A stretch of 64,000 nt of DNA from Candidatus Levyibacteriota bacterium (GCA_043807135.1 JAZDGF010000001.1:68573-132572), one strand, 5' to 3'; positions 25,244-43,331 are shown, counted from the stretch's first letter. Translations and numbers: made by a program. The notes: generated by a model from the sequence alone, not told the origin.

Positions 25244-25254
25244 TATAAAGCCTT

Positions 25255-25381: not shown

Positions 25382-26983
25382 ATGAAAACTGCCCGGTTTA
25401 TTAAGTTTTTTGTTGTTTGTCTATTTTTGGTTTTATTTCTCTTTTCCACTCAAAAACAAGCTTTTGCGCAAAATTATAATTATCAACCACGTTCAAGTTA
25501 TACAACTCCAGTAACAAATCCTGATGTTCCAAAAAATCTCCATACCTATAGTCAAAGTGTAATTATTGAACTTATGTCCTCTGTTTCTTGTCTTGTAGTA
25601 GGAGTTGACCCAGTTTCTGTAAATAGAAAATGCCTTGGAATAGATACTAATACGGGAAAAATCGGTTATGTAGAAAAAAATGGAGGACTTATTGGAGTCT
25701 CTGCTAATCTTATTGCAATGACTTATAAAATCCCAATCCATACCTCTGATTATGTAGATTATATGGCTAGTAATTTTGGTGTTACCAAAAGCGCTTATGC
25801 ACAGGATACCGGAGTTGGTTTTGAAGGAATAAGGCCATTGTTAAGTCTCTGGGTAGTTTTTAGAGACATCGTATATCTATTGTTTGTTATTGTATTTGTT
25901 TTAATTGGAATAGCCATTATGCTTAGGGTAAAAATTGATCCAAGGACTGTTATGTCTATTCAAAATCAGATACCAAGAATTATTGTTGCTTTAGTTTTAG
26001 TCACTCTCTCCTTTGCAATTGCTGGATTTTTAATTGACCTTATGTGGATTTTTACCTTCTTAATAATAAATCTTTTTTCTGATGCAAATATTTCTCCTAA
26101 ATTAAACGCTGCAGAGGTTGGCTCAAAGATTATGGGAAATCCCTTTGTATTTATAAATGATCTTTTAGGATGGGGCGGATTTGGTCTATTAAAAATTCCT
26201 GCATCAATTGGAGTTACTGTTTTTGAAATTTTGGCAAATTTATTAAAGTTTGACTTTGATTTGGGCGGTGGAGTGATAGCTTGGATTCTGAATGCTGTTA
26301 CAAGCCCTATACGTAATATTATAGGCGTGCTTGGCGGAATAGCTGGTTTTCTTGTTATTGCAATTGCTTTGGCAATTGCTTTGTTTAGGCTTTGGTTTAC
26401 TCTTATTCAAGCCTTTGTTATGATTATTTTAGATATTATTATTGCTCCTTTCTGGATTATGTCAGGAGTAATTCCGGGAAGATCAATTGGATTTGGTAGC
26501 TGGTTTAAAGACATTCTTGCAAATTTATCTGCATTCCCTGCTGTTGTTTTTTTGTTTATTCTCACTGAAAGACTTATGAACGCTTATGAAAGCACTACAA
26601 CCTCAGCTCCCTTTGTTCCCCCTCTTTTAGGTGGAACTATTGCCCAGGACTCAATAAAAGGAATTATTGCCTTTGGCATGATTATGGCAAGTCCAAAAAT
26701 TGTTAGCATGATAAAAGCCGCGCTAAAAGCTCCAAAATATGATACATCTTCTGTTATTGGGGGTGCTACTGCTGCAGCTGGAGTAATTGGTCAACCAAGT
26801 AGAGTTGGATGGAATAGACTTACTCGCAGAAGAGATCCGTGGGGCCATTATAGTGAAGGTAAGCTGAGAGGATTAGTTATGGGAAAACCTGGTACAGAAA
26901 ATAGAGCGCAGAAGTGGATAAGAAGGGTTGCTGAGGGAAGTTTTCAAGACGCTAAACAACTTGAGGAACAAAGAAGAAGATAA
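25382..26983 (+). CDS. polytopic membrane protein, VirB6/TrbL-like candidate (T4SS inner-membrane channel component)
   Basis: Signal peptide, ~150-aa periplasmic N-domain, then 6-8 hydrophobic helices and a basic C-tail. Architecture and position (first gene of the T4SS-like block) fit VirB6-family proteins. No sequence motif confirms it. Confidence 0.45.
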   Translation: MKTARFIKFFVVCLFLVLFLFSTQKQAFAQNYNYQPRSSYTTPVTNPDVPKNLHTYSQSVIIELMSSVSCLVVGVDPVSVNRKCLGIDTNTGKIGYVEKNGGLIGVSANLIAMTYKIPIHTSDYVDYMASNFGVTKSAYAQDTGVGFEGIRPLLSLWVVFRDIVYLLFVIVFVLIGIAIMLRVKIDPRTVMSIQNQIPRIIVALVLVTLSFAIAGFLIDLMWIFTFLIINLFSDANISPKLNAAEVGSKIMGNPFVFINDLLGWGGFGLLKIPASIGVTVFEILANLLKFDFDLGGGVIAWILNAVTSPIRNIIGVLGGIAGFLVIAIALAIALFRLWFTLIQAFVMIILDIIIAPFWIMSGVIPGRSIGFGSWFKDILANLSAFPAVVFLFILTERLMNAYESTTTSAPFVPPLLGGTIAQDSIKGIIAFGMIMASPKIVSMIKAALKAPKYDTSSVIGGATAAAGVIGQPSRVGWNRLTRRRDPWGHYSEGKLRGLVMGKPGTENRAQKWIRRVAEGSFQDAKQLEEQRRR

Positions 26984-27007
26984 GAAGGGTTGCTGAGGGA
27001 AGTTTTC
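26918..27007. repeat. 28-bp direct repeat (ATAAGAAGGGTTGCTGAGGGAAGTTTTC) x2, copies at 26918-26945 and 26980-27007
   Basis: Exact duplicate. Copy 1 encodes the C-terminal (W)IRRVAEGSFQ of the VirB6-like protein; copy 2 spans its TAA stop (26981-26983) in a different frame. Confidence 0.85.
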
Positions 27008-27050
27008 CGGCTCAAAGAGATAAAAAACCGTAAAATAAACGTGCTAATTA

Positions 27051-30000
27051 TTAATACCCTTTCATAACTGCTTGAAGAAACTTCAAAGTCCCTACAAATC
27101 CTGCGTGGGCAAATGCAGCAATGCCTTCTTTTTTAAATTCTTCTCTAAAAAGATCTTTATATCTCGACTGTGCCATTCCTTCTATTTGATCAAATTCTTT
27201 TGCAGTGAAAAAAGAAGACTTTTTCTTGGTTGTTTTATATTTTCCATCTTTATCGAGATCTTCTTCTTCTATTCCGTAAGGAAAATTCTTGAAAAGAAAC
27301 TCAATTGCTGCAATGTCCATTGAGCTATACCAAGAATATCCCTCATCTTCTTGTCTATGTGACCAAAGATCTTTTGCAATAAAGTATGCAAAAGGCAGTC
27401 TGGCAAGTCTTTTCCTTACATGTTCTGGAGCTTCACCTTCTCCTTCAAATTCTCGATCAAAAGGATCTCTATATCCATTTTTAAATAATCCACGATTAGT
27501 CCCGTCAGCTTCAGGCTTCCCATCTTTGTCTGCATATAAATTAAAGCTTAATACTTCTTCATTAAACATATGCTCCTCAAGCTTTTTTTCACCAAATTTT
27601 AGTATGGGGTCTTTTTCCTCTCCGTTTTCGTCAAGCCCCGATTCATCCTTTTCATACCACCACTCCCTTACTTCATGCCCATAAAGAAATTCCGGAAGAT
27701 CAAATGTATATCTTGTATTTTTCCAAAACTCTTTAAATACCTTGTCTCTTTCTTCTTCAATTATCTGAAGTCTTCCATAAGCACCCTTTACAACCATCTT
27801 TGAATAATCTATCCCGTGATGTGTTGTAATGAATTCATAAAACTTGAATGCATTAAAGACATGATCGTCTATAAATTTTCTTTGTGCATTTCCTTTGAAG
27901 CTAAAAGCTCGTATATCTTCATCTATAGAAACATTATTCCCCTGTCCTCCTTGTAAAATTTCAAGCAAAGTTTTCTTAAAGCTTTTTTCACCATAAGCGT
28001 CTCCTTCGCTTACGGTCGTTGCTTCAAGGAAGTTTAAACCAATTCTTTTCAGTCCAAAAACGTTTTGAATATTTCCTACAGCACTTTTTGCATCTTTATA
28101 TTGCCCTTTTCTATACTCAGCTGTATTAATTAGCTTAGACCATCCGTCAAAACCAATTGCCTTTGTGTCATTTCTTGCTTGTATTCCCATCCACCTTACC
28201 ATAGTACTTACCCATTCAACAGCATACTTTGCTTCTTCTTTTGCATGCATTATTTCTTTATCTTCTAGCTCTTTAATCGAAAATCTTAAACATAATTCTT
28301 TATATTCTTTAGGATAATCTTTTTTTAGAATCTCAAATACTATTCTTTCATCAGATATTGCTGCAACCATAGCCCCGTTTACTAGTTCTTTTATTGCCTC
28401 TGGTTTTTTTGGATGGTTAAATATATTAAGATCATTTAACTCAAGCTCCCAATTTTTTAAACATTTTTCTGCAGCGTCTCTTATTTCTTTAGTCATCTCT
28501 GTTTCCCCAGAGATTTTTTCTAACTCTTCTACTCCTCCTGTCTTGCCAATAATATATCTGTAAAAATTAAGTGTTCCTTCTTCTCCAAGAACTTCTTCAA
28601 ACATATTTTTTTCCTCACCATCTGGCTTATAAGCTATTTCTGAAAGATGATAATAAGCAAGTAGTATTTTTTGTATATCTTTTCCTACAGAACCTTGTTT
28701 TTCTTGATGCTCAATCTTGTCTTTACCTATGATCCACTCTAATTCTTCTGCATTGTTTCCTGAAAGCATCAGTATTTTAAGAAGTCTATTCCTATTCTTT
28801 GTAAAAATATTGTTATAATGTATTTCAGCTAGTGCATTTGGGAGATCTTTTTCTATCCCCTCAACCATATGGTATTTAACATTAAAGTTATGCGACATTT
28901 GAAAAAGCCATACTTCAATCAATAACAGTTCTTTTAAATTCTCCTGCTTTTTTGGAAGATGGTAATCTCCTGTTGGAAGCATCCCCATTTTGGGATCAGG
29001 TTTTTCTACCTTGGTCATAAAGTATTTAGCATAAGCCATCATTTCTCCGAAGTTAATTGATCTATAGTTAGTAGTAACGCCAATATCAGAAAAAAGATTT
29101 ACTTCAGCATCTGAATGTAGATCATGATAATAAAGAATTCTACTTCTAATCCATGCTAAAAAATTCTCTGCTTTGAATTTTCCTTCTTTATCTAAAAGCT
29201 CATGTTTTCCGCCGGTTCTCCATTCCGGATCTTGAGCACTCATAATAAGTCTTGCCAAATCTTCTGCACTATTAAGAAGAGTATCGTATCCAAACTGTCC
29301 CTCAAATCTTTTAATAAAATCTCCAAGTGTGACATCTCGTATTCCTTTCTCCTCTCTTGTTTCATGCTCTGTTTCTAGCCCAGACAGTCTTAAAAATAAA
29401 TTCCTAGCACTTCTAAAATCCTCTTCTCTCTCAAAATTCAACTCTCCTTTTCTTGCTTTTGTTATAAGTCCTCTTGCGATTTCTAAATCTTTAAGAAACT
29501 CATCTTTTTTGCTTTCATCTTCTTCAAACTTATTTACATTAAGGCTTCCATTCTTTATTCCACTTTCTATATTTGCTATCATACTAGCCCAGGCAACATC
29601 AATTGCTAAAAATTTTGTGAAATCTTCTTGAGATTCTGCTTTTATTAATTCTTGTATCATTTCTTGATAAATTTTCTCAGAAGAATTATCCCTATTTTCT
29701 TTTTCTGACTTATCTATTGCATTTGTAAGATCATTTGTAAATTCCTCTGTTTCTTTTCCTCCATCAGGAAAAAATTTTTCAGCAGTACCTTTTGCTATAT
29801 TTCTTTGATGACGCTTTCGTTGATTTTCTTGCGCAATTTCTCCTAAGCCAAGACCTTCCAGCACATTTTTTACAGATTCCTCCGATATCGACACTTCTGT
29901 TGCTGCTGACGAACTTTTAGATGAATGTTCCGTAGGACGGTCATGTTCTCCAGGGGGACCTTCTTCTGACATAAAAATATCTCCTTCTCCTCCAAGTTTA

Positions 30001-30080
30001 GAAGCATTAGGTTTGCTTGTCAACGCTTCTTGACTATCTGTTTGGCCATTTGATGAAATATTATTTTCTTTTTCTGTCAT
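27051..30080 (-). CDS. large (1009 aa) acidic hypothetical protein with disordered Ser/Glu-rich N-terminus
   Basis: Single uninterrupted ORF, no TM segments, no recognisable catalytic motifs, ~100-aa low-complexity N-terminus. Lies inside the T4SS-like block on the opposite strand. Confidence 0.6.
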   Translation of the reverse strand: MTEKENNISSNGQTDSQEALTSKPNASKLGGEGDIFMSEEGPPGEHDRPTEHSSKSSSAATEVSISEESVKNVLEGLGLGEIAQENQRKRHQRNIAKGTAEKFFPDGGKETEEFTNDLTNAIDKSEKENRDNSSEKIYQEMIQELIKAESQEDFTKFLAIDVAWASMIANIESGIKNGSLNVNKFEEDESKKDEFLKDLEIARGLITKARKGELNFEREEDFRSARNLFLRLSGLETEHETREEKGIRDVTLGDFIKRFEGQFGYDTLLNSAEDLARLIMSAQDPEWRTGGKHELLDKEGKFKAENFLAWIRSRILYYHDLHSDAEVNLFSDIGVTTNYRSINFGEMMAYAKYFMTKVEKPDPKMGMLPTGDYHLPKKQENLKELLLIEVWLFQMSHNFNVKYHMVEGIEKDLPNALAEIHYNNIFTKNRNRLLKILMLSGNNAEELEWIIGKDKIEHQEKQGSVGKDIQKILLAYYHLSEIAYKPDGEEKNMFEEVLGEEGTLNFYRYIIGKTGGVEELEKISGETEMTKEIRDAAEKCLKNWELELNDLNIFNHPKKPEAIKELVNGAMVAAISDERIVFEILKKDYPKEYKELCLRFSIKELEDKEIMHAKEEAKYAVEWVSTMVRWMGIQARNDTKAIGFDGWSKLINTAEYRKGQYKDAKSAVGNIQNVFGLKRIGLNFLEATTVSEGDAYGEKSFKKTLLEILQGGQGNNVSIDEDIRAFSFKGNAQRKFIDDHVFNAFKFYEFITTHHGIDYSKMVVKGAYGRLQIIEEERDKVFKEFWKNTRYTFDLPEFLYGHEVREWWYEKDESGLDENGEEKDPILKFGEKKLEEHMFNEEVLSFNLYADKDGKPEADGTNRGLFKNGYRDPFDREFEGEGEAPEHVRKRLARLPFAYFIAKDLWSHRQEDEGYSWYSSMDIAAIEFLFKNFPYGIEEEDLDKDGKYKTTKKKSSFFTAKEFDQIEGMAQSRYKDLFREEFKKEGIAAFAHAGFVGTLKFLQAVMKGY

Positions 30081-30154
30081 GGCAAGAGAATTTTAAAAGA
30101 ATATAATATCGATAGCTTGATATTAACCCGACAAAAAACTTACAATATATCTAC

Positions 30155-31484
30155 CATGGATCCTAAATACTTTGAATCCCTGTATCCTAATACATCGCGC
30201 TTTAAAGAAATTGAGGAAATTTTAAGCTTTGTTAAAAACGGAAACTCTTGCCAACTTATTTCCTTTCCAGGAACCGGAAGGTCTAATATCCTGCAGCTTC
30301 TTGCCTATAATAGAGGCGTTAGAGAGAAACATCTTGGTGAAAAACAAAAATATGTCCATTTTGTTTACATGAATTTTTCAGAGGTAAGAAATCGCACTCT
30401 TCATGATGTAAATAAATTTATCTTTCTTTCTCTTATTGATTCTTTAACTGAACGAGAATTTTTAGAAGAGCACAAAAAGCTTAATAGGATTTTTAAAGAA
30501 TATTCAAAAACAAATGACGAATTAATTTTTTTTCAAGGATTAAAAGAAGCTCTTAATTATTTATCTATTGAAAAAAAACTAACAATAGTTCTTCTTTTTG
30601 ATAGATTTGAAGAATATCTTCCCGTACTCACTGATGAATTTTTTGCAAATCTTAGAATTTTAAGAAATAAGGCAAAATATCGTTTTTCTGCAGTATTCAC
30701 GCTTAACCGTCCCCTTGAAGATTTATTAAAGCCAACACTTTTTAATCAATTCTATGAATTTTTAGCAGGACATCTTGTTTATGTTTCTTTGTATGACAAG
30801 CCGGGAATGGATTTTAGAATTTCTTACTTTGAAAAAAAATATCAAAGGTCATTAGATAAAAAAACTTTAACTATCATTTTTTCTCTTACCGCAGGTCACG
30901 GAAAATTAACTCGCATTGCCCTTGAAACAGTTTTTGAGCAAAATATAAAAACCTTAACAAAAGAGGAAATTTTGCAATTATTACTAGCCAAAAAAACTAT
31001 TACCAGAGCTCTTTTTGAAATTTATAGCTTTCTTTCCAAAGAGGAAATAGAAAGACTTAATAAAAAGAGTAATGATAGCTTTTTAGAAAACATTGGCTTA
31101 TTTAAAGACAATAAAATCACAATTCTTCTTTTTGAAAAATATTTAGAGTTAAAAAAAACTTTTATCTCTACTGAAGATGAAAAAGATAAAATATTTATTG
31201 ATCATGAAACAAATGAAATTAAAAAAGGAAAAGAAAATCTTTCCGATAAATTAACTTCTTCAGAGTTTAAACTTTTAAAATATCTGTTGCAAAATCCTGA
31301 AAGAGTTATTGAGAGAAATGAGATTATTGAAGCTGTTTGGCAAAATACTGCCTCTTTTGCCGGCGTTTCTGATCAAGCAGTTGATCAACTTGTTCTTAGA
31401 ATTCGTAAGAAAATTGAAGACAATCCAAACAACCCCAACTACCTTTTAACGATTAAGGGAAGAGGATTTAAATTTATTCTCTAA
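30155..31484 (+). CDS. P-loop NTPase domain fused to C-terminal OmpR/PhoB-type winged-helix DNA-binding domain (putative transcriptional regulator)
   Basis: N-terminal Walker-A-like FPGTGRSNILQLL plus hhhhD Walker-B-like IVLLFDRFEE. C-terminal trans_reg_C-like segment LTSSEFKLLKYLLQNPERVIERNEIIEAVWQ...AVDQLVLRIRKKIE...LLTIKGRGFKF. Probable start ATG 30155 (MDPKYFESL). Confidence 0.65.
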
Positions 31485-31535
31485 CACTATCTTGGGTAGT
31501 TGCATTTTGTTAAATATTTCAGCTATGCTTAGATT

Positions 31536-32150
31536 GTGAGAAAAATAATTATATCGTTGGGAATTTTTTATATATTTTCTTTCCAACTTCCTCCTTTACA
31601 TCTAATTCATGCTCTCTTACCAGACAACGCAATGTGTGACAAAGATGAAGAATGTGCTTCCGGTGCCTGTGTAAAATACACACTTCCCGGAGAAGGGAAA
31701 ATTCGCAATACAGAAAAGCGCTGCGGTCCAATAGAAGATAAGGAAGCTAAGAAAGTTATTAACCCCGATGGTACAAAAACAGATTTGGAAGATGAGAAAA
31801 AAGTAAAGCAAGAACCCCTGCGTAATTCTCCTTGTAAGCAAGTGGGGGGTAAAGACAACGCTTATTTTAATTGTGATACTGGTTTAGGAATAACAATTAG
31901 TTCAAACCCAAAAGATTTTGTTAAAACTCTGTTTGGTGTAATTTTAAGTATCTCTGGAATGATAGCTCTCCTGCTTATAATATTTTCAGGGTATAGACTA
32001 ATCACCTCTCGGGGAAATCCAGAAAAAATTACAGATGCAAAAGACAGACTTACTTCTGCAGTTATCGGGCTCTTGTTTGTTATCTTTTCACTTGTTATAT
32101 TGCAAATTATAGGAGTTGATATTTTACATATTCCCGGATTAACAGAATGA
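31536..32150 (+). CDS. pilin-like protein (VirB2/TrbC-like candidate) with Cys-rich N-terminal domain
   Basis: Signal peptide, Cys-rich ~100-aa domain, then two hydrophobic helices flanking YRLITSRGNPEKITDAKDRLTSAV. This is a hairpin-TM topology shared with the next three genes. Confidence 0.5.
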   Translation: MRKIIISLGIFYIFSFQLPPLHLIHALLPDNAMCDKDEECASGACVKYTLPGEGKIRNTEKRCGPIEDKEAKKVINPDGTKTDLEDEKKVKQEPLRNSPCKQVGGKDNAYFNCDTGLGITISSNPKDFVKTLFGVILSISGMIALLLIIFSGYRLITSRGNPEKITDAKDRLTSAVIGLLFVIFSLVILQIIGVDILHIPGLTE

Positions 32151-32458
32151 AAGAATTAGTTCTTAAAATTAATGGGCAAGAAGTTCAAGCGCCTGAAGGA
32201 GTTCCAGTAGGAGGAGCTGATACAGGAAGTCAAATAATTTCCTTGAGCGTAACAGTTCTTTTTATAGTAGCAATTTTGCTTGCTCTTATATTTTTAATTT
32301 GGGGAGGAATTGATTGGACTACGTCTCAAGGAGATAAGAATAAAGTTCATGCAGCAAGAGAAAAGATAGTATATTCTATTATCGGACTTAGTGTAGTTTT
32401 ACTATCTTTTTTTATTGTTTCTCTAGTATCTGGTATTTTAGGAGTGAAACTTTTTTAA
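32147..32458 (+). CDS. pilin-like protein paralog (VirB2/TrbC-like candidate)
   Basis: TM - LIWGGIDWTTSQGDKNKVHAAREKI - TM. Shares the motif 'GG(I/V)xW(T/I)xSQGDK(N/S)KV..AR' with the 32518 paralog. 4-nt overlap with the upstream gene. Confidence 0.5.
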   Translation: MKELVLKINGQEVQAPEGVPVGGADTGSQIISLSVTVLFIVAILLALIFLIWGGIDWTTSQGDKNKVHAAREKIVYSIIGLSVVLLSFFIVSLVSGILGVKLF

Positions 32459-32517
32459 TATTTAATAAAGGAAGGACTTGACAAGCCAAAAAAAACATCG
32501 TACGATAAAGAAAAGTT

Positions 32518-32934: not shown

Positions 32935-32996
32935 AACAACTTCTAAAGCAGTCTTGCTATCTACATTTTTTTCTGCTAAGTTAAGTTTATGGATGA

Positions 32997-34369: not shown

Positions 34370-34423
34370 ATTTATATATTAGTTTATATTGTAAAGGAAA
34401 ATCAACTGTGATACCTTTTAATT

Positions 34424-36098: not shown

Positions 36099-36100
36099 AT

Positions 36101-36766
36101 ATGAGTAAAGCTGCCCAAAGAATTCATGCAACAACTCAAAAATTTACAGAGATTGAAGAAATCTCTGAAGACATTGTCATTTTTCAAGGCGGAAATGCTA
36201 CTTTAGTAATTGAAGTAACCGCAACAAATTTTGCTCTTCTTTCAAGAGAGGAACAAGATACTAAAATCTATTCTTACGCAGCGCTTCTAAATTCACTTTC
36301 TTTTGCAATTCAAATAATTGTTAGAAGTAAAAAATTAGACATTACAGCATATTTAAAACTGCTCGATTCTCAAGCAAAGGCAACCCAGAATGAACTTCTC
36401 AAAAATCAAATAAGCTTGTATCGAGATTTTGTCCAGGAATTAGTTAAGGTAAATACCGTACTTGATAAAAAATTTTATATTTGTATTCCCTACTCTTATC
36501 TTGAAAAAGGAGTTGGTGCTACCGCAAGTTCGGTAAGCAAGGGCGGGCCAAAAGACAATTTTACAGAACAAGCAAAAGCTGCGCTTCATTCAAAAGCAGA
36601 AAGTATCTTGTCTCAAGTTGCAAGATTAAATCTTAGAGCAAAAGTTTTGGAAAAAGAAGAGCTTGTAAAGCTTTACTATGAAACTTACAACGATCAATCA
36701 ATTGAAACAAATCAAATAACAGATAATGTTAGAACACCAATTGTCAGAGGAGAGGAGAAAAAATAA
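36101..36766 (+). CDS. hypothetical soluble protein directly preceding virB4-like gene
   Basis: 221-aa ORF with no TM or motifs; its stop overlaps the VirB4-like start (ATAATG) suggesting translational coupling. Confidence 0.45.
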   Translation: MSKAAQRIHATTQKFTEIEEISEDIVIFQGGNATLVIEVTATNFALLSREEQDTKIYSYAALLNSLSFAIQIIVRSKKLDITAYLKLLDSQAKATQNELLKNQISLYRDFVQELVKVNTVLDKKFYICIPYSYLEKGVGATASSVSKGGPKDNFTEQAKAALHSKAESILSQVARLNLRAKVLEKEELVKLYYETYNDQSIETNQITDNVRTPIVRGEEKK

Positions 36767-38757
36767 TGTTTTTTGGAAAAAAGAAAAAAGATAACAAACA
36801 AACAATAGCACCTACTCAAAAAACGCCGACCTCAAAAGAGTTAGCAAAGGTGGAAAAAGGTATGGTTTCTTTATCAGATGTAATTGCACCTTCTTCTGTT
36901 GAAGTGGACTTTCATTATGTTCGAGTAGGAGAAAGGTATTACAAAACATTTTTTGTTGTTGGCTATCCACGCTATGTCTCCCCAAATTGGCTACAGCCTT
37001 TAATTGATTTTGATCATTCAATGAATGTGTCCATGTTTGCCTATCCCACCTCTTCTCCGGATGTTCTATCTGACTTAAGAAGAAAAATTGCTGAGATGGA
37101 AGCAACAATTTCTTCTCAGATTGAAGAAGGAAAAGTTGTTGATGCAAAAGTAAGAGCATCTCTTGATGATGCCCTGTCAATTCAAGAACAATTAGCAAAG
37201 GGGGTTGAGCGGTTTTTTCAATTCAGCTTATACATTACCCTTATCTCAGATCATCCAAAAGAACTTGAAGAGGCATCAAAAAGACTTTCGTCTACTCTTG
37301 GTTCAATCATGATGATTGCCAAAACTGCAACCCTACAAATGGAAGACGGATTTAAATCAAGTATTCCTATGGGTCAAGATAAATTATTTATTACCAGAAA
37401 CATGGATACAACTTCTCTTGCTTCTACATTTCCTTTTACATCAGCAACTCTTGCTCAGGAAAAAGGAGTTATGTATGGAATAAATGAGCAAAATGGATCC
37501 CTTGTTATCTTTGATCGCTTTTCCCTTGAAAATGCCAATGAGGTTGTTTTGGGAAAGTCAGGATCAGGAAAATCATACTTAATAAAGCTTGAGGTTTTAA
37601 GACAATTCATGTTTGGAACCGAAGTTATTATTATTGACCCTGAAGGAGAGTATGGACAAATTGCAAAAACTATGGGAGGAGAAGAAGTTGCCTTTACTCC
37701 TTCTAATCCAATTAAAATAAATCCGTTTGATTTATCAGGGCTTTACGAGGAAGGTGAAAATGAGCTTGGTCTTAAAATTCTTTCCTTGCATGGACTTTTA
37801 AGAATCGTTATGGGAGATTTGGATGCTGCCCATGACGCAATTTTAGATCGAGCACTGGTTGAAACCTACAGACAAAAAGGAATAACTACTGATCCGGCAA
37901 CACAGAAAAAAACTCCTCCTTTAATGGAAGATCTTTATAAAGTTTTATTGGGAATGGAAGATTCGCAAGCAGGAGAACTTGCGCTTCGCCTTGAAAAGTT
38001 TATTAAAGGAAGCTTGAACGGCATTTTTAATCAACAATCAAACTTTGATATAAAAAACGCTTTAACAATCTTTAATATTAAAGCCTTAGAGGAAGAACTA
38101 AGACCAGTTGCAATGCATATTATTCTTGATTTTGTTTGGACTAGGGTTAGAAAAACCCTTAAGAAGAGACTTTTAATACTAGATGAAGCTTGGTATATTA
38201 TGAAATATCCTGATTCAGCTTCCTTTGTATATGGGATTGCCAAAAGATCAAGAAAATACTATCTTGCCTTAACAACCGCAACCCAGGATGCTCAGGACTT
38301 CTTATCAACTGATTATGGAAGGGCAATTCTTTCCAACTCCTCTATCCAGATGCTTTTAAAACAAAGCCCAACGGAAATTGATTTGATCTCAAAAGTTTTC
38401 TATCTTTCCGAAGGAGAAAAAGAGCTACTTCTTTCAGCAGACATTGGAGAGGGGTTATTTTTTGCCGGACAAAGTCATGTTGCCATGAAGGTAATTGCAG
38501 CACCTTTTGAGCACACTTTAATTACGTCTAATCCTCAAGAAATTTTAAACATAAGGGAACAAGAGGAAACGGAAATAAAAGCTCAGGAAACAACTCAAGA
38601 TATGCCAATACAGCCAATTGCTCCTCCTATAGATCAAAAACCACAACCGCCATTGGAAGATAACATTTCAGAAACAAAACCACCTACTCCGGTAAATCTA
38701 GAGAGTGCCCCTCCAATAAATGATGCTCAAAGCACAATTCCGAATTCAAATACATAA
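36766..38757 (+). CDS. virB4: VirB4/TraE/PrgJ-family type IV secretion ATPase
   Basis: Walker A VLGKSGSGKSY, Walker B RLLILDEAWYIM, VirB4-like N-terminal membrane-associated domain, ~660 aa like Gram-positive VirB4 homologues (TcpF/PrgJ/TrsE). Confidence 0.85.
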   Translation: MFFGKKKKDNKQTIAPTQKTPTSKELAKVEKGMVSLSDVIAPSSVEVDFHYVRVGERYYKTFFVVGYPRYVSPNWLQPLIDFDHSMNVSMFAYPTSSPDVLSDLRRKIAEMEATISSQIEEGKVVDAKVRASLDDALSIQEQLAKGVERFFQFSLYITLISDHPKELEEASKRLSSTLGSIMMIAKTATLQMEDGFKSSIPMGQDKLFITRNMDTTSLASTFPFTSATLAQEKGVMYGINEQNGSLVIFDRFSLENANEVVLGKSGSGKSYLIKLEVLRQFMFGTEVIIIDPEGEYGQIAKTMGGEEVAFTPSNPIKINPFDLSGLYEEGENELGLKILSLHGLLRIVMGDLDAAHDAILDRALVETYRQKGITTDPATQKKTPPLMEDLYKVLLGMEDSQAGELALRLEKFIKGSLNGIFNQQSNFDIKNALTIFNIKALEEELRPVAMHIILDFVWTRVRKTLKKRLLILDEAWYIMKYPDSASFVYGIAKRSRKYYLALTTATQDAQDFLSTDYGRAILSNSSIQMLLKQSPTEIDLISKVFYLSEGEKELLLSADIGEGLFFAGQSHVAMKVIAAPFEHTLITSNPQEILNIREQEETEIKAQETTQDMPIQPIAPPIDQKPQPPLEDNISETKPPTPVNLESAPPINDAQSTIPNSNT

Positions 38758-38764
38758 ATAATCT

Positions 38765-41700
38765 ATGAATGGAAACAATAATCCTCTAGCAAAAATTTTA
38801 GCAATTTTAATTACCACTTATCCCGATCACGCCGAAGAGTTAGGAAGAATAACAAATCTTTTTCTAAAAGATCCTGAGAAGGCAAAGCTTGAATTATATA
38901 AATGGGAAAAATCTTCTAACATAAAACTTCCTGATCATATAACGCTTTTGATAGAACAAGAGTTACAACAGGGAAAAGAAGTCTCCTCTCGGGACAATAA
39001 TGAAAATCAAAAAAAGAAGAACAGCAAGGATTCAAAAAATCAACCATACAATGACGGTGCTTATATAGCTAAAGACCCAACCCCTGCAGAAAGATATAGA
39101 AAGGCCATAGTAAATAAATTTATTAGAAAACAATCAAATGAAAGAACAAGCAAAGATTACCTTGAAGAAAAAACGGTCTCTGAAAAAGATGTTTTTGACA
39201 AATGGTACGAGGAGAATACAAGGCTTGGAAAAACAAAATTTTCCGAAGAAGAAGTTAAGGCATATAAAGAAAGTGAAGAGTTTAAAAAAAAATTAATTTC
39301 AATAGTAGATGAAAAATATAAAAAAAAATTCGAAGGAGAAATTGCAGCATTTATCATTGCTGAAAAATCTAGGATATATGAAAATCCAAATGAAGATCCT
39401 GTAATAAAAGAGTATAAAAAAATTCTAGCAGAAGCTAATAAAAAATCTCCTGAAGAAGCAGAAAAAATAAAAAAAGAAGCCTCAAAAATCCTTCATGAAG
39501 AATTTACTCAAAAAACACTTTCCTACTCTAAGGACCTCCCAGAAATAAAAGAATACTTAATTAAAGTAAATAAAGAAATCCTAGTAGCTCCTTCGATAAT
39601 CATGCCTTCTTCTGTGTTTGAAGAAGAATCTTATTCATCAGAACCATTTGAAAATGATAACAATAATGAAGAAGTTTTCCCTTATTTTCAGGGAAATCAA
39701 TCTGAGCCCGAAAATGAACCTGATAAATCTGGGAATCAATCCTCGTCAAACAGGCCCAGCAGACCCAACAGAAGAACAATTAGAGAAATTAATCCGGAAA
39801 AAAATGTTGCTAGAAGAGCGGCTGGAAGAACGAGGGGGAAAGGTCAAAAAGCGCTTTTGCGATTTGGAAGAGTAGCTGTCCAAGTTGTTTCAAAAATCCC
39901 CCCGCATGTCTGGATTGTAATTATTGCACTTATTATTCTTGTTATTCTTATTTTTATGCTTTTTGGACTTTTCGACGATCCATTAGAAAACGGTGGTGTA
40001 TATAATATATCAAAATCTGCAGATAAAGAGGCTGTGGCCAATCCTCCTGACGATCTTAACTATCTTACGGCATTATCTACTCCTCAAGATATTACATACA
40101 CAATTACTGTTTCTTATTCTGGAAAAGCCCAATCTGTTACGGTTACAGATCCCATTCCAGAAAACGCAATCTTAGTTTCTGCTGATAACGATGCTGAGTT
40201 TTTAGATGAAAATGGCAATATAATAACTGATAAAAACCTTGCAAGAACAGTTACTTGGACTATCACTCCTGAAGCATCATCAGGAGGAAATCTGTCTAAT
40301 CCAGCTAATACGACATTGGGAGATTGGTTAAATAAAAAGCTTTCAGAAAATCCACTTCGCTTAGGGCTAAGCGGCATGGGACCAACGATTGCAAATTTAT
40401 CAGCAAAATACAATGTCCCAATTGAGCTCGCGCTGGGACAATTTGCCTTAGAAACCCAATGGTATTCAGATAAAGGAGTTACTGTTACCCAAGGATCAAA
40501 TAATCCAGGCAATATTTTATGCAATCCTGATCTTAGGCTTGGAGCAATTGGAAATGATATTGTTGACCGCCTGGGAACCCATTATTGTAGATTTTCCTCT
40601 CTTGAGAGCGGACTTGAAGCATATTTTAAACATTTAGATAGTTCTACTTATCGAAGTGCAGTTGATGAGTTTATTAAAACAAGCAATCCTAGACCCGTTA
40701 TCCATATTTACTATTCATCTTCAAATGACCCAAGTAGCGGAAACGAAAACAGCTATGTAAATACTGTAAACAATATTACAAAAGATTTAAGAGACGCTGC
40801 TGTAATAGATGGTGTAAATCTTGCTGTTTCCTCTTCTTTCAATGAGCAGTATAATAACGCTACTTCTAGTTTTACCCTAGCTTTAAGACCCAAACCTGGT
40901 GCGAAAGATACATATATTATTAACCAGGCATTTGCAAGTGGAGCTGGAATATCAATATGCACAGGAGGATCAACAGTTGTTCTTGACCCCGGACATCCAA
41001 GCGAAGTTGGTATTGGAGGGGCGGGAAATGGAGTTAATGAAGTTGAAAAAGTCTTAGAGATTGCAAATATTATAAAACCAAAGTTAGAAGCAAAAGGATA
41101 CAGTGTTATCTTAACCAGAAATAATAATACAACTAGGGTTACAAATAAAGCGAGGGCGGAAACCGCAAATAGTGCAAATGCTTCTTTAATGTTCAGAATT
41201 CATACTGACGCTGGAAGAACTGACAGGGGAGTTGCGTATTATTATCCAGCAGAACAAGGAACAGTTGATGGAGTTACAGGCCCAAGCAGTGAAGTTATTG
41301 AAAAAAGCAAACAAGCAGCGACTGCCATCCTGAACACAACCAGGGATACTCTCATTGGAAACGATATGCCACTTTTTAGAGGAGGCCTTCTAACTGATGC
41401 TGATACTGCGGTAGGAAAGAAAAATGGGGGAGCTTTAGCGGGGTCTATTTATTCATCGGTTCCAACTGTGCTTGTGGAACTGGGAAGCCTCACCAACGCT
41501 ACCGATGCCACCTGGCTTAAATCAACTGATAATTTAAATAAATATGCTGATTCATTAGCGTCTGGAATTTCCAATTTTGCAGGGACCTCTACCTGCGCCG
41601 ATTCTAATAACGATTTTCCCACTAATTATGTTGGCACTGGAGGGTATACTCCTCTTCAGGGTCAATGGGAAGGAACTACTCAAAAGCTTACTGACTATCT

Positions 41701-42145
41701 TCTTGCAAATAACCCTTCTCCCAAATTTACTGTTTCAACATTAACTCTTGCGGGATATTATATAAAATATGCTGCAGAAGTAAATCTTCGAGCAGACATT
41801 CTTTGGGCACAAATGATTCATGAAACAGGTTTTGGAAAATATGGAGGAGATGTTTTGCCAAGCCAAAATAACTTTGCTGGTGTTGGAGCAACCGGAAATG
41901 GAGAAGAAGGAATATCGTTTGTCACCGCAGAAGCTGGTGTAAAAGCACAAATTGCCCACATGGCAGCTTACGTATACACAACTGATATTACTTCATGGAC
42001 TAATTCCCAAACAGATCCCCGCTATGACTTAATAATCCCCAGAGGAATCGCAAAGTCCTTAAATAATCTTGACGGAAGATGGGCTATTCCCGGAAACGGA
42101 TATGGAACAACTATTGAAAATTATGTAAGAATTATTAATCAATAA
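38765..42145 (+). CDS. membrane-anchored multidomain peptidoglycan hydrolase (glucosaminidase-like + Amidase_3 + glucosaminidase-like); T4SS-associated lytic enzyme candidate
   Basis: K/E-rich ~370-aa N-region, single TM (VWIVIIALIILVILIFMLF). Glucosaminidase-like segment (LGQFALETQWYSDKG...NNPGNI). Amidase_3 motifs (VVLDPGHPSEVGIGGAGNG...LTRNN...ANSANASLMFRIHTDAG...PTVLVELGSLTN). Second glucosaminidase-like segment (ADILWAQMIHETGFGKYGG...NNFAGVGATG). Confidence 0.75.
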   Translation: MNGNNNPLAKILAILITTYPDHAEELGRITNLFLKDPEKAKLELYKWEKSSNIKLPDHITLLIEQELQQGKEVSSRDNNENQKKKNSKDSKNQPYNDGAYIAKDPTPAERYRKAIVNKFIRKQSNERTSKDYLEEKTVSEKDVFDKWYEENTRLGKTKFSEEEVKAYKESEEFKKKLISIVDEKYKKKFEGEIAAFIIAEKSRIYENPNEDPVIKEYKKILAEANKKSPEEAEKIKKEASKILHEEFTQKTLSYSKDLPEIKEYLIKVNKEILVAPSIIMPSSVFEEESYSSEPFENDNNNEEVFPYFQGNQSEPENEPDKSGNQSSSNRPSRPNRRTIREINPEKNVARRAAGRTRGKGQKALLRFGRVAVQVVSKIPPHVWIVIIALIILVILIFMLFGLFDDPLENGGVYNISKSADKEAVANPPDDLNYLTALSTPQDITYTITVSYSGKAQSVTVTDPIPENAILVSADNDAEFLDENGNIITDKNLARTVTWTITPEASSGGNLSNPANTTLGDWLNKKLSENPLRLGLSGMGPTIANLSAKYNVPIELALGQFALETQWYSDKGVTVTQGSNNPGNILCNPDLRLGAIGNDIVDRLGTHYCRFSSLESGLEAYFKHLDSSTYRSAVDEFIKTSNPRPVIHIYYSSSNDPSSGNENSYVNTVNNITKDLRDAAVIDGVNLAVSSSFNEQYNNATSSFTLALRPKPGAKDTYIINQAFASGAGISICTGGSTVVLDPGHPSEVGIGGAGNGVNEVEKVLEIANIIKPKLEAKGYSVILTRNNNTTRVTNKARAETANSANASLMFRIHTDAGRTDRGVAYYYPAEQGTVDGVTGPSSEVIEKSKQAATAILNTTRDTLIGNDMPLFRGGLLTDADTAVGKKNGGALAGSIYSSVPTVLVELGSLTNATDATWLKSTDNLNKYADSLASGISNFAGTSTCADSNNDFPTNYVGTGGYTPLQGQWEGTTQKLTDYLLANNPSPKFTVSTLTLAGYYIKYAAEVNLRADILWAQMIHETGFGKYGGDVLPSQNNFAGVGATGNGEEGISFVTAEAGVKAQIAHMAAYVYTTDITSWTNSQTDPRYDLIIPRGIAKSLNNLDGRWAIPGNGYGTTIENYVRIINQ

Positions 42146-42184
42146 TGTTGTCTATGTTTTTTATCTTTGTTATTCTAAATATTA

Positions 42185-42841
42185 ATGTTTAAAAAAACAC
42201 TTTTGCTATTTTTTTCACTAACAGTTATTTTTATTGTGTTTAAAAATAACGCCCTATTCTATGGAGGGGATTCTTATGCCGCAACTAACCAGGGCTCTCA
42301 AACAGCAAGTGAATGTGTAATCGTTAAGGTAGGAAATCCAACAGCAGATCCTGACACTTCAAAATGCAACACCTTTTTGGGCACTGCTTCAAGTTATGCT
42401 CTAAAAGCTATTGAGCTCGCGAGAAGCCAAAAAGGGAAAATGTATTTATGGGCTGCTTGTCATGGTGATTTATCAAAAAGCCCACCCCCCGGGGGATGTG
42501 CAAATTATGATTGTTCGGGTCTTACAAGATGGACTTGGTATTGGGCAACTGATGGAAAAGTCAACGATCTTGACCAAACGGCTACTAACTGGGATGCGGG
42601 ATATGGTAATTTTGAGAAGTTTGACAAGAGTCAGGTTGCCCTTATTCAACCAGGAGATCTTGTTTATTTTGGGCCATCAAAAGCCGACGCATCCCATACA
42701 GGAATCTACGCTGGCCTAGGTGACTGTGGCGCAAACGACTGCTTTATTCATGCTCCTGGAACAGGAAAAGCTGTTACAGAATATAGTTTATCTAAAAGAA
42801 CAAATTTTATTGGTTTTCTTAGGCCTATTGTTGTAGAATAA
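42185..42841 (+). CDS. secreted NlpC/P60-family peptidoglycan endopeptidase
   Basis: Signal peptide; catalytic Cys region KMYLWAACHG...GGCANYDCSGLTRWTW and His region HTGIYAGLG...FIHAP, consistent with NlpC/P60 (Cys-His-His). Confidence 0.75.
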   Translation: MFKKTLLLFFSLTVIFIVFKNNALFYGGDSYAATNQGSQTASECVIVKVGNPTADPDTSKCNTFLGTASSYALKAIELARSQKGKMYLWAACHGDLSKSPPPGGCANYDCSGLTRWTWYWATDGKVNDLDQTATNWDAGYGNFEKFDKSQVALIQPGDLVYFGPSKADASHTGIYAGLGDCGANDCFIHAPGTGKAVTEYSLSKRTNFIGFLRPIVVE

Positions 42842-42845
42842 AAAT

Positions 42846-43331
42846 ATGAATTTAACATCTTTCTTTCAAAACAAAAAATTTTTAATAGGTTCTCTTATTG
42901 CTCTTTTTTTTATCGTAGCTTTAATCGTTATTTTTGTCATTAGCAGTCTTTTTAAAACCGTCGATGAACAGCCCCTTATCAACACAGATGAATTCGTAAG
43001 CCCTACAACAATGCCTGTTATCACTACAAAAATTATTCAAAATATTGAAAAAGAAATTAGGGAAAATATAGAAGCTGCCATACCTAGTGAAAATATTAAT
43101 ATATATGAACCAAGGCTTTATGAAGATTGGGCAATTGTAACTATTGAACCAAAAGATCACATAACCGATGCTGCAAATCTACTTTTACATAAAGAGGAAA
43201 ATCAATGGAAAATAATCCTCGGACCGGGTACTTTTTTCGACGAAGAGTCACTGATTGAAGTAAGTGCCCCCATCTATCTTTTTGATGAGATAAACCGAAT
43301 GTCTATTCCTGCACCCGAATCGGCATTATAA
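42846..43331 (+). CDS. hypothetical membrane-anchored protein
   Basis: 161 aa, N-terminal TM (IGSLIALFFIVALIVIFVISSLF), no motifs. 3' end overlaps the dnaN 3' end (convergent) by ~29 nt. Confidence 0.45.
   Translation: MNLTSFFQNKKFLIGSLIALFFIVALIVIFVISSLFKTVDEQPLINTDEFVSPTTMPVITTKIIQNIEKEIRENIEAAIPSENINIYEPRLYEDWAIVTIEPKDHITDAANLLLHKEENQWKIILGPGTFFDEESLIEVSAPIYLFDEINRMSIPAPESAL

What the first reader, a model, noticed from the sequence alone, without database searches (positions are those of the whole stretch)
25382..43331. ~18 kb type-IV-secretion/pilus-like gene block wedged between a tRNA array and the replication origin
The block combines a VirB4-family ATPase (36766-38757), a VirB6-like polytopic membrane protein, a VirB3/PrgI-like membrane protein, four small hairpin-TM pilin-like paralogs and two cell-wall hydrolases (an 1126-aa triple-domain enzyme plus NlpC/P60). 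It also holds an ATPase-wHTH regulator, several coiled-coil or tail-anchored proteins and a 1009-aa acidic orphan. This composition parallels Gram-positive conjugative T4SSs (PrgI-PrgJ-PrgK, TcpF/TcpG). However, no VirD4 coupling protein, relaxase or VirB11 is present. That absence argues for a dedicated pilus, adhesion or DNA/protein-transfer apparatus rather than a mobilisable element. Its placement immediately after five tRNA genes and directly abutting dnaN/oriC is unusual.
Basis: partly seen in the sequence, partly recalled or inferred. Interest (0 to 1): 0.85.

Follow-up and report, generated by a model that had tools for sequence, protein, structure and literature searches.

The report
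Known Patescibacteria type IV secretion locus
This 18-kb block is the chromosomal, non-conjugative type IV secretion/pilus system that ultrasmall Patescibacteria (here a Levybacteria genome) carry next to their replication origin; it is real, but its make-up and position were already published in 2023-2025.

Summary
Window 25382-43331 encodes these parts:
- a VirB4 ATPase that passes a curated equivalog cut-off;
- a separate TrsD-like VirB4 N-terminal fragment;
- a PrgI/VirB3 protein;
- four VirB2-like pilin paralogs (Pfam PF18895);
- an OmpR-type wHTH regulator;
- a multi-domain peptidoglycan hydrolase plus an NlpC/P60 enzyme.

The block converges on dnaN-dnaA. No VirD4, relaxase or integrase was found in the window, or within ±10 kb of virB4 in 80 related Levybacteria loci. 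Gene order is conserved in those loci, the tRNA flank is shared by two relatives that extend far enough upstream, and GC3 matches the flanks. It is therefore a core chromosomal system, not an ICE.

All of this matches the Patescibacteria T4SS described by Quiñonero-Coronel et al. 2025 (PMC12102498) and shown essential in Southlakia (PMC10633639). That includes the pilin arrays, TrsD, the missing relaxase and the position beside dnaA.

Corrections: three adjacent tRNAs, not five. The 1009-aa protein is not an orphan (158 family representatives at E<=1e-10). VirB4 is split in two.

Small additions: a VirB6 candidate for Microgenomatia, and a hypervariable hydrolase cassette between virB4 and dnaN. 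Function remains unknown.

The parts
25382..26983 (+). Divergent VirB6/TrbL-like polytopic membrane protein (533 aa, about 10 hydrophobic segments)
27051..30080 (-). Conserved large acidic cytoplasmic protein of unknown function (1009 aa); a locus-associated 'dark' family, not an orphan
   Evidence: 193 representatives at E<=1e-3 and 158 at E<=1e-10. No Pfam domain in 30 members. No PDB relative. No TM segment or Walker A motif. It is always on the minus strand between the VirB6-like gene and the regulator, in 14 of 43 loci with >=9 kb upstream. A no-Pfam minus-strand protein of 942-1008 aa holds the same position in L081-L083.
30117..31484 (+). Regulator: OmpR/PhoB-type winged-helix DNA-binding domain (residues 378-453) after a roughly 340-aa conserved N-terminal domain with a deviant P-loop-like motif
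   Evidence: Trans_reg_C 74.7 bits. PDB profile hits fall only on the wHTH domain. Orthologues occur in 36 of 80 loci at about 51% identity. The motif reads SFPGTGRS in the window and GLPGVGRS in relatives. There is no receiver domain.
31536..32150 (+). VirB2-like T4SS pilin paralog 1, with signal peptide and a Cys-rich N-terminal ectodomain (204 aa)
   Evidence: PF18895 43.7 bits against 26.6. NCBIfam Mbov_0395 pilin-like, 35.3 bits, below its cut-off of 40. Orthologue in 54 loci.
32147..32458 (+). VirB2-like T4SS pilin paralog 2 (103 aa, two-TM hairpin)
   Evidence: PF18895 34.9 bits. Orthologue in 54 loci in conserved order.
32518..32934 (+). VirB2-like T4SS pilin paralog 3 (138 aa, signal peptide plus hairpin)
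   Evidence: PF18895 34.2 bits. Orthologue in 55 loci.
33015..33332 (+). VirB2-like T4SS pilin paralog 4. The reading frame is intact, but ATA stands at the position of the orthologues' ATG (non-canonical start or start loss)
   Evidence: Translation. PF18895 25.7 bits on the 62-aa TTG-started fragment. 25 orthologues start with ATG before the conserved DWxxC..GVATLxCIP motif. Orthologue in 56 loci. Paralogs are 25-30% identical to each other.
33329..34369 (-). Lineage-specific acidic tail-anchored protein (346 aa); an insertion between pilin 4 and prgI, probably not a core part
   Evidence: No Pfam hit. C-terminal hydrophobic segment at residue 317. No homologue in 80 related loci, where pilin 4 and prgI are typically only 100-700 bp apart.
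34424..34759 (+). Lineage-specific small acidic protein (111 aa)
   Evidence: No Pfam hit. No homologue in 80 loci.
34857..36098 (+). PrgI/VirB3-like membrane protein with a long C-terminal extension ending in an Ig-like (CarboxypepD_reg-like) domain
   Evidence: PF12666 38.4 bits against 27. CarboxypepD_reg 28.3 bits, below its cut-off. Full-length orthologue directly upstream of trsD-virB4 in 75 of 80 loci.
36101..36766 (+). TrsD-like protein, the separately encoded N-terminal domain of VirB4 (221 aa)
   Evidence: NCBIfam VirB4_plasma positions 102-233, E 2e-10; TrsD/TraD E 8e-4. Present in 79 of 80 loci. Its stop overlaps the virB4 start.
36766..38757 (+). VirB4-family T4SS ATPase (663 aa)
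   Evidence: NF045971, 392 bits against 325. Pfam P-loop_TraG, DUF87 and AAA_10. PDB 4ag5 E 1.2e-45. Walker A at residue 263. 7999 homologues at E<=1e-10, the best 120 being 70-94% identical.
38765..42145 (+). Bitopic multi-domain peptidoglycan hydrolase in the PrgK position. Layout: charged N-terminal region 1-369, TM 370-408, DUF11 Ig-like 440-518, glucosaminidase-like about 541-643, Amidase_3 738-937, Glucosaminidase 998-1087
   Evidence: Only 4-6 of 80 relatives show partial matches, in the N-terminal and DUF11 parts and never in the enzymatic domains.
42185..42841 (+). Secreted NlpC/P60 cell-wall peptidase (218 aa)
   Evidence: PF00877 38.4 bits against 23. N-terminal hydrophobic segment. 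No homologue at this position in 80 loci.
42846..43331 (+). N-terminally anchored small protein (161 aa), a sequence singleton. It occupies the PrgL/VirB8 position; its role is undecided (VirB8-like, or hydrolase immunity)
   Evidence: Only itself among 5.8 billion proteins. Single-sequence AF2 gave pLDDT 64: a TM helix plus one helix and a four-stranded sheet. Foldseek found only weak cystatin/NTF2-like hits: Tai3 E 0.11, TcpC rank 42. In relatives, 72 of 76 small ORFs in this slot have an N-terminal hydrophobic segment.
24650..25342 (+). Upstream border: tRNA-Arg(GCG), tRNA-Ser(CGA), tRNA-Ser(GGA)
   Evidence: The same tRNA set lies upstream of the VirB6-like gene in L081 and L083. No att-like repeat at the far border.
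43303..45917 (-). Downstream border: dnaN (43303-44412) and dnaA (44541-45917), convergent with the T4SS operon. DnaA-box clusters flank dnaA
   Evidence: dnaN lies downstream of virB4 in 63 of 80 loci.

Best explanation
This is the chromosomal type IV secretion system of the Patescibacteria clade, derived from MPF-FATA (monoderm conjugation machinery). The genome is a Candidatus Levybacteria (Microgenomatia) genome.

Shown by sequence and structure comparison: a membrane translocon of VirB6-like channel protein, PrgI/VirB3 and a two-piece VirB4 ATPase (TrsD plus VirB4). Four anciently diverged VirB2-like pilins accompany it. A tightly packed downstream cassette (prgI to the 161-aa gene, gaps of 0-40 bp) supplies membrane-anchored and secreted peptidoglycan hydrolases. 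A conserved OmpR-type wHTH regulator and a conserved roughly 1000-aa cytoplasmic protein of unknown function sit between the VirB6 gene and the pilins.

Inferred:
- VirB4, docked on VirB3 and VirB6, powers extraction and polymerisation of the pilins into a pilus or conduit.
- The hydrolases open the cell wall, its own and probably the host bacterium's.
- The machine mediates contact-dependent exchange of macromolecules with the host cell on which these ultrasmall bacteria depend.
- It does not transfer its own DNA, because it has no relaxase or coupling protein nearby and is a vertically inherited core locus.
- The direction and cargo are not known. My rough split is effector or hydrolase export about 45%, import of host nucleic acids or nutrients about 30%, adhesion only about 15%, and cryptic conjugation about 10%.
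- The position beside oriC may raise gene dosage, as the literature suggests.
For: - Component identities: VirB4, TrsD, PrgI, pilins, hydrolases, regulator; VirB6.
- Taxon: the best hits are named Candidatus Levybacteria/Levyibacteriota.
- Core, not mobile: the order regulator, 4 pilins, PrgI, TrsD, VirB4, [variable], dnaN, dnaA, rnpA, yidC is conserved in 80 loci (VirB4 80, TrsD 79, PrgI 75, pilins 54-56, dnaN 63).
- The VirB6-like gene, the ~1000-aa minus-strand gene, the regulator and the pilins sit in the same order in L081-L083.
- The same tRNAs lie upstream in L081 and L083.
- GC3 is 0.14-0.30 in the block and its flanks alike.
- No att-like repeat.
- No T4CP, relaxase or integrase in the window. 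No T4CP or relaxase among ORFs near virB4 in the 80 loci.
- Each pilin paralog has its own orthologues (45-50% identity) in fixed order, while paralogs are 25-30% identical. This suggests non-redundant roles.
- Literature: the same architecture, the lack of relaxase and the dnaA proximity are described for 2,417 Patescibacteria genomes (PMC12102498). The T4SS and its pilin array are essential for epibiotic growth of Southlakia (PMC10633639; PMC12857230). Tubular structures that may be T4SS pili were seen at a parasite-host interface (bioRxiv 10.64898/2026.06.21.733656).
Against: - No experiment exists for any Levybacteria, and no host is known.
- A coupling protein could be encoded elsewhere in the genome. 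The window covers only 64 kb of a contig of at least 143 kb, and T4CP homologues far from virB4 are common in Patescibacteria.
- No VirB8-like subunit was identified with confidence.
- The fourth pilin may be non-functional here.
- The VirB6 assignment rests on transitive homology and a medium-confidence model (pLDDT 68.5).
- I did not place this VirB4 in a phylogenetic tree.
Confidence: 0.88

Rival explanations
1. A decayed or cryptic integrative conjugative element that inserted at the tRNA-Ser gene and lost its relaxase, coupling protein and integrase.
For: The block starts 40 bp after a tRNA-Ser gene. Its components are homologous to Gram-positive and Mycoplasma ICE conjugation genes. One relative carries an rve integrase and toxin-antitoxin genes in the neighbourhood.
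Against: The locus and both borders are syntenic across Levybacteria: 80 loci for the block, L081/L083 for the tRNA flank, and 63 loci for dnaN. VirB4 is 59-94% identical across those species, and the literature describes inheritance as mostly vertical. GC3 is indistinguishable from the flanks. There is no direct repeat of the tRNA 3' end. No integrase, relaxase or T4CP occurs in the window or near virB4 in relatives.
Confidence: 0.03
2. A DNA or RNA uptake machine, analogous to the Helicobacter ComB or archaeal Ced systems. It would import host nucleic acids to feed a cell that cannot make nucleotides.
For: NCBIfam gives weak VirB4 similarity to the archaeal DNA-import ATPase CedB (61.5 bits, far below its cut-off). 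Reviews propose nucleotide acquisition as a role because competence is dispensable in Southlakia while the T4SS is essential (PMC11665869). A cultivated relative feeds on host RNA and shows pilus-like tubes. Absence of relaxase and T4CP is compatible with import.
Against: No ComEC-like or nuclease partner lies in the block. VirB4's best family is a conjugative export type. There is no experimental link between any Patescibacteria T4SS and uptake. This rival is a sub-case of the main explanation (about 30% of it), not a different identity.
Confidence: 0.25
3. The genes are unrelated housekeeping envelope genes (autolysins, small membrane proteins) that happen to lie beside a lone VirB4-like ATPase, with no shared machine.
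For: Several members (the 1009-aa, 346-aa, 111-aa and 161-aa proteins) have no recognisable T4SS family. The hydrolases downstream of virB4 are not conserved in sequence.
Against: Five independent T4SS families co-occur: VirB4, TrsD, PrgI/VirB3, VirB2-like pilins and VirB6. They stay linked in the same order in dozens of species. The orthologous cluster behaves as one essential unit in Southlakia Tn-seq.
Confidence: 0.02

Closest known systems
Patescibacteria-clade T4SS (Quiñonero-Coronel et al. 2025, PMC12102498). Experimental prototype: Southlakia epibionticum ML1 SEML1_0006-0019 (Wang et al. 2023, PMC10633639)
   Same: VirB4 of MPF-FATA ancestry, TrsD directly upstream, PrgI/VirB3, an array of divergent PF18895 VirB2-like pilins and cell-wall hydrolases immediately downstream of virB4. 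No relaxase and no nearby T4CP. Chromosomal position beside dnaA/dnaN/rnpA.
   Different: Only in detail. The paper reports VirB6 as scarce, and VirB3 as mostly unlinked to virB4, in Microgenomatia. Here PrgI is adjacent in 75 of 80 Levybacteria loci. A divergent VirB6 family sits about 10 kb upstream. This locus has four pilins against six in Southlakia. It also carries a conserved ~1000-aa protein and a wHTH regulator that I did not see discussed.
Enterococcus pCF10 Prg/Pcf conjugative T4SS (prgH-prgI-prgJ-prgK-prgL), the MPF-FATA prototype
   Same: Gene order VirB3 (PrgI), VirB4 (PrgJ), multi-domain membrane-anchored peptidoglycan hydrolase (PrgK position), then a small N-terminally anchored protein (PrgL position). 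A VirB6-like polytopic protein is also present. The monoderm architecture has no VirB7/9/10. The pCF10 gene order and PrgK/PrgL features are from established knowledge.
   Different: pCF10 has the T4CP PcfC, the relaxase PcfG, an oriT and the adhesin PrgB, and it has no VirB2 pilins. Here there are pilins and none of the DNA-processing parts. The hydrolase domains differ: amidase_3, glucosaminidase and NlpC/P60 here, against LytM/SLT/CHAP in PrgK. VirB4 is split.
Staphylococcus pGO1 / pIP501-type Trs/Tra systems and Mycoplasma ICE T4SS (Mbov_0395 pilin-like, Mbov_0397 VirB4)
   Same: A separate TrsD protein resembling the VirB4 N-terminus (TrsD is specific to the pGO1 subclass). There are weak NCBIfam matches of pilin 1 to the Mycoplasma ICE pilin-like protein and of TrsD and VirB4 to Mbov_0397.
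   Different: Those are mobile conjugative elements with a relaxase and T4CP. All the NCBIfam scores to them are below the curated cut-offs.
R388 TrwI/VirB6 and Legionella DotA (solved T4SS channel/stalk subunits)

Membership tests
Patescibacteria-clade T4SS | VirB4-family ATPase of MPF-FATA type | tested here: met
   NF045971, 392 bits against a cut-off of 325. PDB 4ag5 E 1.2e-45. Walker A present.
Patescibacteria-clade T4SS | VirB4 falls inside the monophyletic Patescibacteria clade of the VirB4 tree | not tested
   No tree was built. Indirect evidence: the best 120 hits are 70-94% identical, and every named one is Patescibacteria or Levybacteria.
Patescibacteria-clade T4SS | TrsD-like protein encoded next to virB4 | tested here: met
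   36101-36766 matches VirB4_plasma positions 102-233 (E 2e-10) and TrsD (E 8e-4). Present in 79 of 80 loci.
Patescibacteria-clade T4SS | PrgI/VirB3 homologue | tested here: met
   PF12666, 38.4 bits against 27.
Patescibacteria-clade T4SS | Array of divergent VirB2-like pilins (PF18895) | tested here: met
   Three genes are above the gathering score. The fourth scores 25.7 against 26.6 on a truncated ORF. Paralog identity is 25-30%.
Patescibacteria-clade T4SS | No relaxase, and no coupling protein near virB4 | tested here: met
   None in window ORFs of >=250 aa. None near virB4 in 80 relatives. The rest of the genome was not visible.
Patescibacteria-clade T4SS | Chromosomal location beside dnaA/dnaN (Microgenomatia, Paceibacteria) | tested here: met
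   The block's last gene overlaps the 3' end of dnaN by 29 bp. Conserved in 63 of 80 loci.
Patescibacteria-clade T4SS | Required for epibiotic growth on a host bacterium | not testable with these tools
   Known only for Southlakia.
Conjugative T4SS / ICE of monoderms (MPF-FATA) | VirD4/TcpA-type coupling protein | tested here: not met
   Absent from the window and from ±10 kb in 80 relatives.
Conjugative T4SS / ICE of monoderms (MPF-FATA) | Relaxase (MOB) and oriT | tested here: not met
   No relaxase family hit (same calls). oriT was not searched.
Conjugative T4SS / ICE of monoderms (MPF-FATA) | Integrase and att repeats, variable presence among relatives, foreign composition | tested here: not met
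   No integrase in the window. No tRNA-derived repeat. Locus present in all 80 relatives. GC3 equals that of the flanks.
Conjugative T4SS / ICE of monoderms (MPF-FATA) | VirB8-like (PrgL/TcpC, NTF2-like) subunit | tested here: inconclusive
   The 161-aa protein has the right position and topology. It is a singleton, and its low-confidence model gives only weak NTF2/cystatin-like hits.
VirB6/TrbL (PF04610) | Match to the family HMM | tested here: inconclusive
   The window protein has no hit at E<=0.01. Two of 40 full-length homologues score 32 bits against 25.9. The link is therefore transitive.
VirB6/TrbL (PF04610) | Polytopic membrane protein with the VirB6 fold, encoded with other T4SS genes | tested here: met

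The most novel reading that the evidence does not exclude
The slot between virB4 and dnaN is a diversification hot-spot. The flanking VirB4 (median 74% identity) and DnaN (55%) are conserved. The slot itself ranges from 23 to 6557 bp.

It always keeps the same architecture: a bitopic protein with a variable ectodomain, followed by one to three small N-terminally anchored proteins. The enzymatic domains, however, are swapped between close relatives. They include amidase_3, glucosaminidase, NlpC/P60, CHAP, M23, SLT, C39-like, M15 and M74, and once a PT-TG pre-toxin domain.

This pattern would fit host-directed cell-wall-breaching enzymes or effectors that set host range. The small anchored partners would act as immunity or VirB8-like adaptors. 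A housekeeping VirB1-type autolysin would not be expected to vary this way.

In addition, the conserved ~1000-aa 'dark' cytoplasmic protein could be a new T4SS accessory component, for example a substrate or a platform replacing the coupling protein.
Probability: 0.25. Interest if true: 0.6.

Novelty: already known. Interest (0 to 1): 0.3.

Why it matters
Patescibacteria make up a large share of bacterial diversity and live attached to other microbes. Their T4SS is one of the few machines shown to be essential for that lifestyle, yet reviews call its role 'completely unknown' (PMC11665869).

This window adds no new kind of system. It does give a clean Levybacteria example that fills two gaps in the published survey for Microgenomatia: a structurally supported VirB6 candidate, and near-universal PrgI adjacency in Levybacteria.

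It also points to two testable leads. One is a hypervariable hydrolase cassette that may reflect host cell-wall specificity. The other is a conserved uncharacterised ~1000-aa partner protein.

Tried and rejected
- Homologue search for the 161-aa protein found only itself. Its single-sequence AF2 model has low confidence, and the fold hits are generic. No VirB8 call was made.
- Profile searches against PDB sequences gave nothing useful for the VirB6-like family, for the 1009-aa family (only low-complexity noise) or for the regulator's N-terminal domain.
- A Pfam scan of 30 members of the 1009-aa family found no domain at all.
- Cluster look-up of ten 1009-aa homologues gave no organism names.
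- I tried to see beyond the window ends to look for a T4CP. The first look-up returned a 5.8-kb contig that lies almost wholly inside the window, and the second protein was not on record.
- ICE signature: no att-like repeat of the tRNA 3' end and no GC3 deviation. The ICE reading was rejected.
- Single-linkage BLAST clustering of the virB4-dnaN gap ORFs merged 81 proteins into one loose chain without a common domain. I did not treat them as one family.
- DnaA-box counts over the whole window are not significant (27 against 17 ± 4.5). Only the local clustering near dnaA is informative.

Full report
**Observation**

The window is low-GC (33%) DNA from a Candidatus Levybacteria/Levyibacteriota (Patescibacteria, Microgenomatia) genome. 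The VirB6-like and 161-aa proteins match, at 100%, NCBI proteins V1697_00485 and V1697_00555 from a 142,870-bp contig. The closest VirB4 relatives that carry a name are called Levybacteria or Patescibacteria.

ORF listing gives 15 genes between 25382 and 43331.
- VirB4 (36766-38757): NCBIfam conju_CD1110 at 392 bits against a cut-off of 325; Pfam P-loop_TraG; PDB 4ag5 at E 1.2e-45.
- PrgI/VirB3: PF12666 above threshold.
- Pilins: three PF18895 T4SS_pilin genes above threshold and a fourth just below.
- The 1126-aa protein: Amidase_3, two glucosaminidase-like stretches and a DUF11 Ig-like domain behind a TM segment.
- An NlpC/P60 enzyme.
- A regulator with an OmpR/PhoB wHTH domain.

The block ends inside the 3' end of dnaN, with dnaA, rnpA and yidC beyond. 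DnaA boxes cluster around dnaA, and the cumulative GC skew has its minimum at 44-46 kb.

- Only three tRNA genes abut the block. A fourth tRNA and a tmRNA lie 5-10 kb further upstream.
- VirB4 is in two pieces. ORF 36101-36766 is a TrsD-like N-terminal VirB4 domain.
- The '1009-aa acidic orphan' belongs to a family with 158 representative clusters at E<=1e-10. No member has a Pfam domain or a PDB relative.
- The fourth pilin has ATA where 25 orthologues have ATG.
- The regulator's 'ATPase' half is only a deviant P-loop-like motif without HMM support.

**VirB6**

The 533-aa polytopic protein has no direct Pfam hit. Two of 40 full-length homologues reach TrbL/VirB6 above the gathering score.

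**Core or accessory?**

A scan of one genome per species returned 80 Levybacteria loci with VirB4 at 59-94% identity. tblastn of the window's proteins shows a fixed order: regulator, pilins 1-4, PrgI, TrsD, VirB4, a variable stretch, then dnaN(-), dnaA(-), rnpA, yidC. Hit counts were:

| Protein | Loci with a hit (of 80) |
|---|---|
| VirB4 | 80 |
| TrsD | 79 |
| PrgI | 75 |
| Pilins | 54-56 |
| Regulator | 36 |
| dnaN | 63 |
| dnaA | 58 |

Most misses are contig ends.

The VirB6-like gene lies at about -10 kb, at the limit of the fetched flank. It is visible in 17 of 43 loci with enough upstream sequence. The 1009-aa family gene is always on the opposite strand between the VirB6-like gene and the regulator, in 14 of those 43 loci.

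Three further contigs show the same order: TrbL-like gene, a ~1000-aa minus-strand gene, Trans_reg_C regulator, then four pilins. Two of them also carry the same tRNA-Arg(GCG), Ser(CGA) and Ser(GGA) genes upstream, and one of these (L083) additionally has the tmRNA and the P-type ATPase.

Other tests agree:
- GC3 is uniform across the block and its flanks.
- No att-like repeat exists.
- No integrase, relaxase or coupling protein is present in the window.
- No relaxase or coupling protein appears among ORFs near virB4 in the 80 loci.

The block is therefore a vertically inherited core locus, not an ICE.

**What is variable**

The 346-aa tail-anchored and 111-aa acidic genes (33329-34759) have no counterpart in any relative. 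They interrupt an otherwise short pilin 4-prgI spacer.

The stretch between virB4 and dnaN ranges from 23 to 6557 bp (median 2284) in 63 relatives. The NlpC/P60 enzyme and the 161-aa protein have no homologue there. The 1126-aa hydrolase has only partial matches in 4-6 loci, and never in its enzymatic domains.

The architecture of this slot is nevertheless conserved. A bitopic protein of 84-1243 aa comes first. It is followed by small proteins, 72 of 76 of which have an N-terminal hydrophobic segment.

Pfam finds many different wall-active domains in the slot across relatives: CHAP, M23, SLT, SLT_3, C39-like, M15_4, M74, YkuD, Ig-like domains and one PT-TG pre-toxin domain. This looks like domain swapping at a fixed position.

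**Comparison with what is known**

Quiñonero-Coronel et al. 2025 surveyed 3,035 Patescibacteria genomes (PMC12102498). Their findings:
- VirB4 is present in 2,417 genomes and forms a monophyletic clade nested in MPF-FATA.
- TrsD is the most common partner, and PrgI/VirB3 is widespread.
- Arrays of 2-11 divergent PF18895/VirB2-like pilins are especially frequent in Microgenomatia.
- Almost no relaxases occur, and T4CP genes lie far from virB4.
- virB4 lies next to dnaA, dnaN and rnpA in Microgenomatia and Paceibacteria.

Wang et al. 2023 showed that the orthologous cluster, including its pilin array, is essential for epibiotic growth of Southlakia. They noted the missing coupling protein and relaxase (PMC10633639). 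A 2025 review treats these systems as established newcomers to the superfamily (PMC12857230).

**Mechanism**

Shown: the identity of the translocon parts and pilins, their linkage, the lack of DNA-processing genes nearby, and core status.

Inferred from established T4SS biology:
- VirB4 docks on VirB3 and VirB6 and drives pilin extraction and pilus or channel assembly.
- The hydrolases open peptidoglycan.
- The apparatus serves contact-dependent exchange with the host cell.

The direction and cargo are unknown. Effector or hydrolase export and nucleic-acid or nutrient import are both proposed in the literature.

**What is new here, modestly**

1. The survey reported VirB6 as scarce, and VirB3 as mostly unlinked to virB4, in Microgenomatia. 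In Levybacteria, PrgI is adjacent to virB4 almost always, and a divergent, structurally supported VirB6 family is part of the locus.
2. The four pilins are ancient paralogs, each with its own orthologues in fixed order. That argues for distinct structural roles rather than antigenic variation.
3. The virB4-dnaN slot is a hot-spot of hydrolase domain shuffling.
4. A conserved 'dark' ~1000-aa protein and a wHTH regulator belong to the locus.

None of these changes the category.

**Verdict**

Novelty: already known. Interest: 0.3.

Noticed in passing
window 38765-43331; L002-L080, virB4-dnaN gaps: The slot between virB4 and dnaN varies from 23 to 6557 bp among 63 Levybacteria. It holds mosaic membrane-anchored proteins with swapped cell-wall hydrolase domains (CHAP, M23, SLT, C39-like, M15, M74, amidase, glucosaminidase, NlpC/P60; one PT-TG pre-toxin domain). 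These are followed by small N-terminally anchored proteins.
   Followed up: partly
window 27051-30080 (-): The large acidic cytoplasmic protein belongs to an uncharacterised family: 158 representatives at E<=1e-10, 850-2300 aa, no Pfam or PDB match. In relatives it stays between the VirB6-like gene and the regulator, on the opposite strand.
   Followed up: partly
window 33015-33017: The fourth pilin gene has ATA, preceded by AAGGAG four bases upstream, where 25 orthologues have ATG. This could be a non-canonical start, loss of the start codon or a sequencing error.
   Followed up: partly
window 33015-33332 and orthologues in L002-L077: Most members of the pilin-4 family (about 19 of 25 orthologues) conserve four cysteines: two just before TM1 (DWxxC...GVATLxCIP) and two at the C-terminus (CIxxFGFxxC). 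Both ends would lie on the same side of the membrane. Disulfides could tie the termini together, functionally recalling cyclised T-pilin. This is speculation.
   Followed up: no
window 26910-26945 and 26972-27007: A 36-nt direct repeat (94% identical, 62-nt spacing) straddles the stop codon of the VirB6-like gene. It looks like a small tandem duplication at the gene's 3' end.
   Followed up: no
window 34857-43331 (+) versus dnaN/dnaA 43303-45917 (-): The prgI-to-161-aa operon converges on dnaN. If oriC lies upstream of dnaA (DnaA boxes at 45863-46051), this conserved operon is transcribed head-on to the leftward replication fork, right beside the origin. The same orientation holds in all 63 relatives that have dnaN.
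   Followed up: no
L081 203-13842 (and L082): In one relative the T4SS genes are interleaved with toxin-antitoxin and abortive-infection genes (MazE-PIN, AbiEii, PrlF-PIN), a 23S_rRNA_IVP gene, GIY-YIG and an rve integrase. Small mobile or defence genes evidently insert into this locus.
   Followed up: no
window 42846-43331: The 161-aa anchored protein is a true singleton in a 5.8-billion-protein database. Its weak fold hits include Tai3, an immunity protein to a T6SS cell-wall amidase. It lies directly after the NlpC/P60 gene.
   Followed up: partly
window 24816-25254: A 440-bp gap between tRNA-Ser(CGA) and tRNA-Ser(GGA) contains only a 169-aa ORF (24734-25243) that overlaps the first tRNA. 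No Rfam family was found there.
   Followed up: no
window 15498-15860: The tmRNA has the tag peptide ADYSYSRGPKLAYAFA. The gene order tmRNA, P-type ATPase, tRNA-Ser(TGA), tRNA-Arg, tRNA-Ser, tRNA-Ser, VirB6-like is shared with L083.
   Followed up: partly
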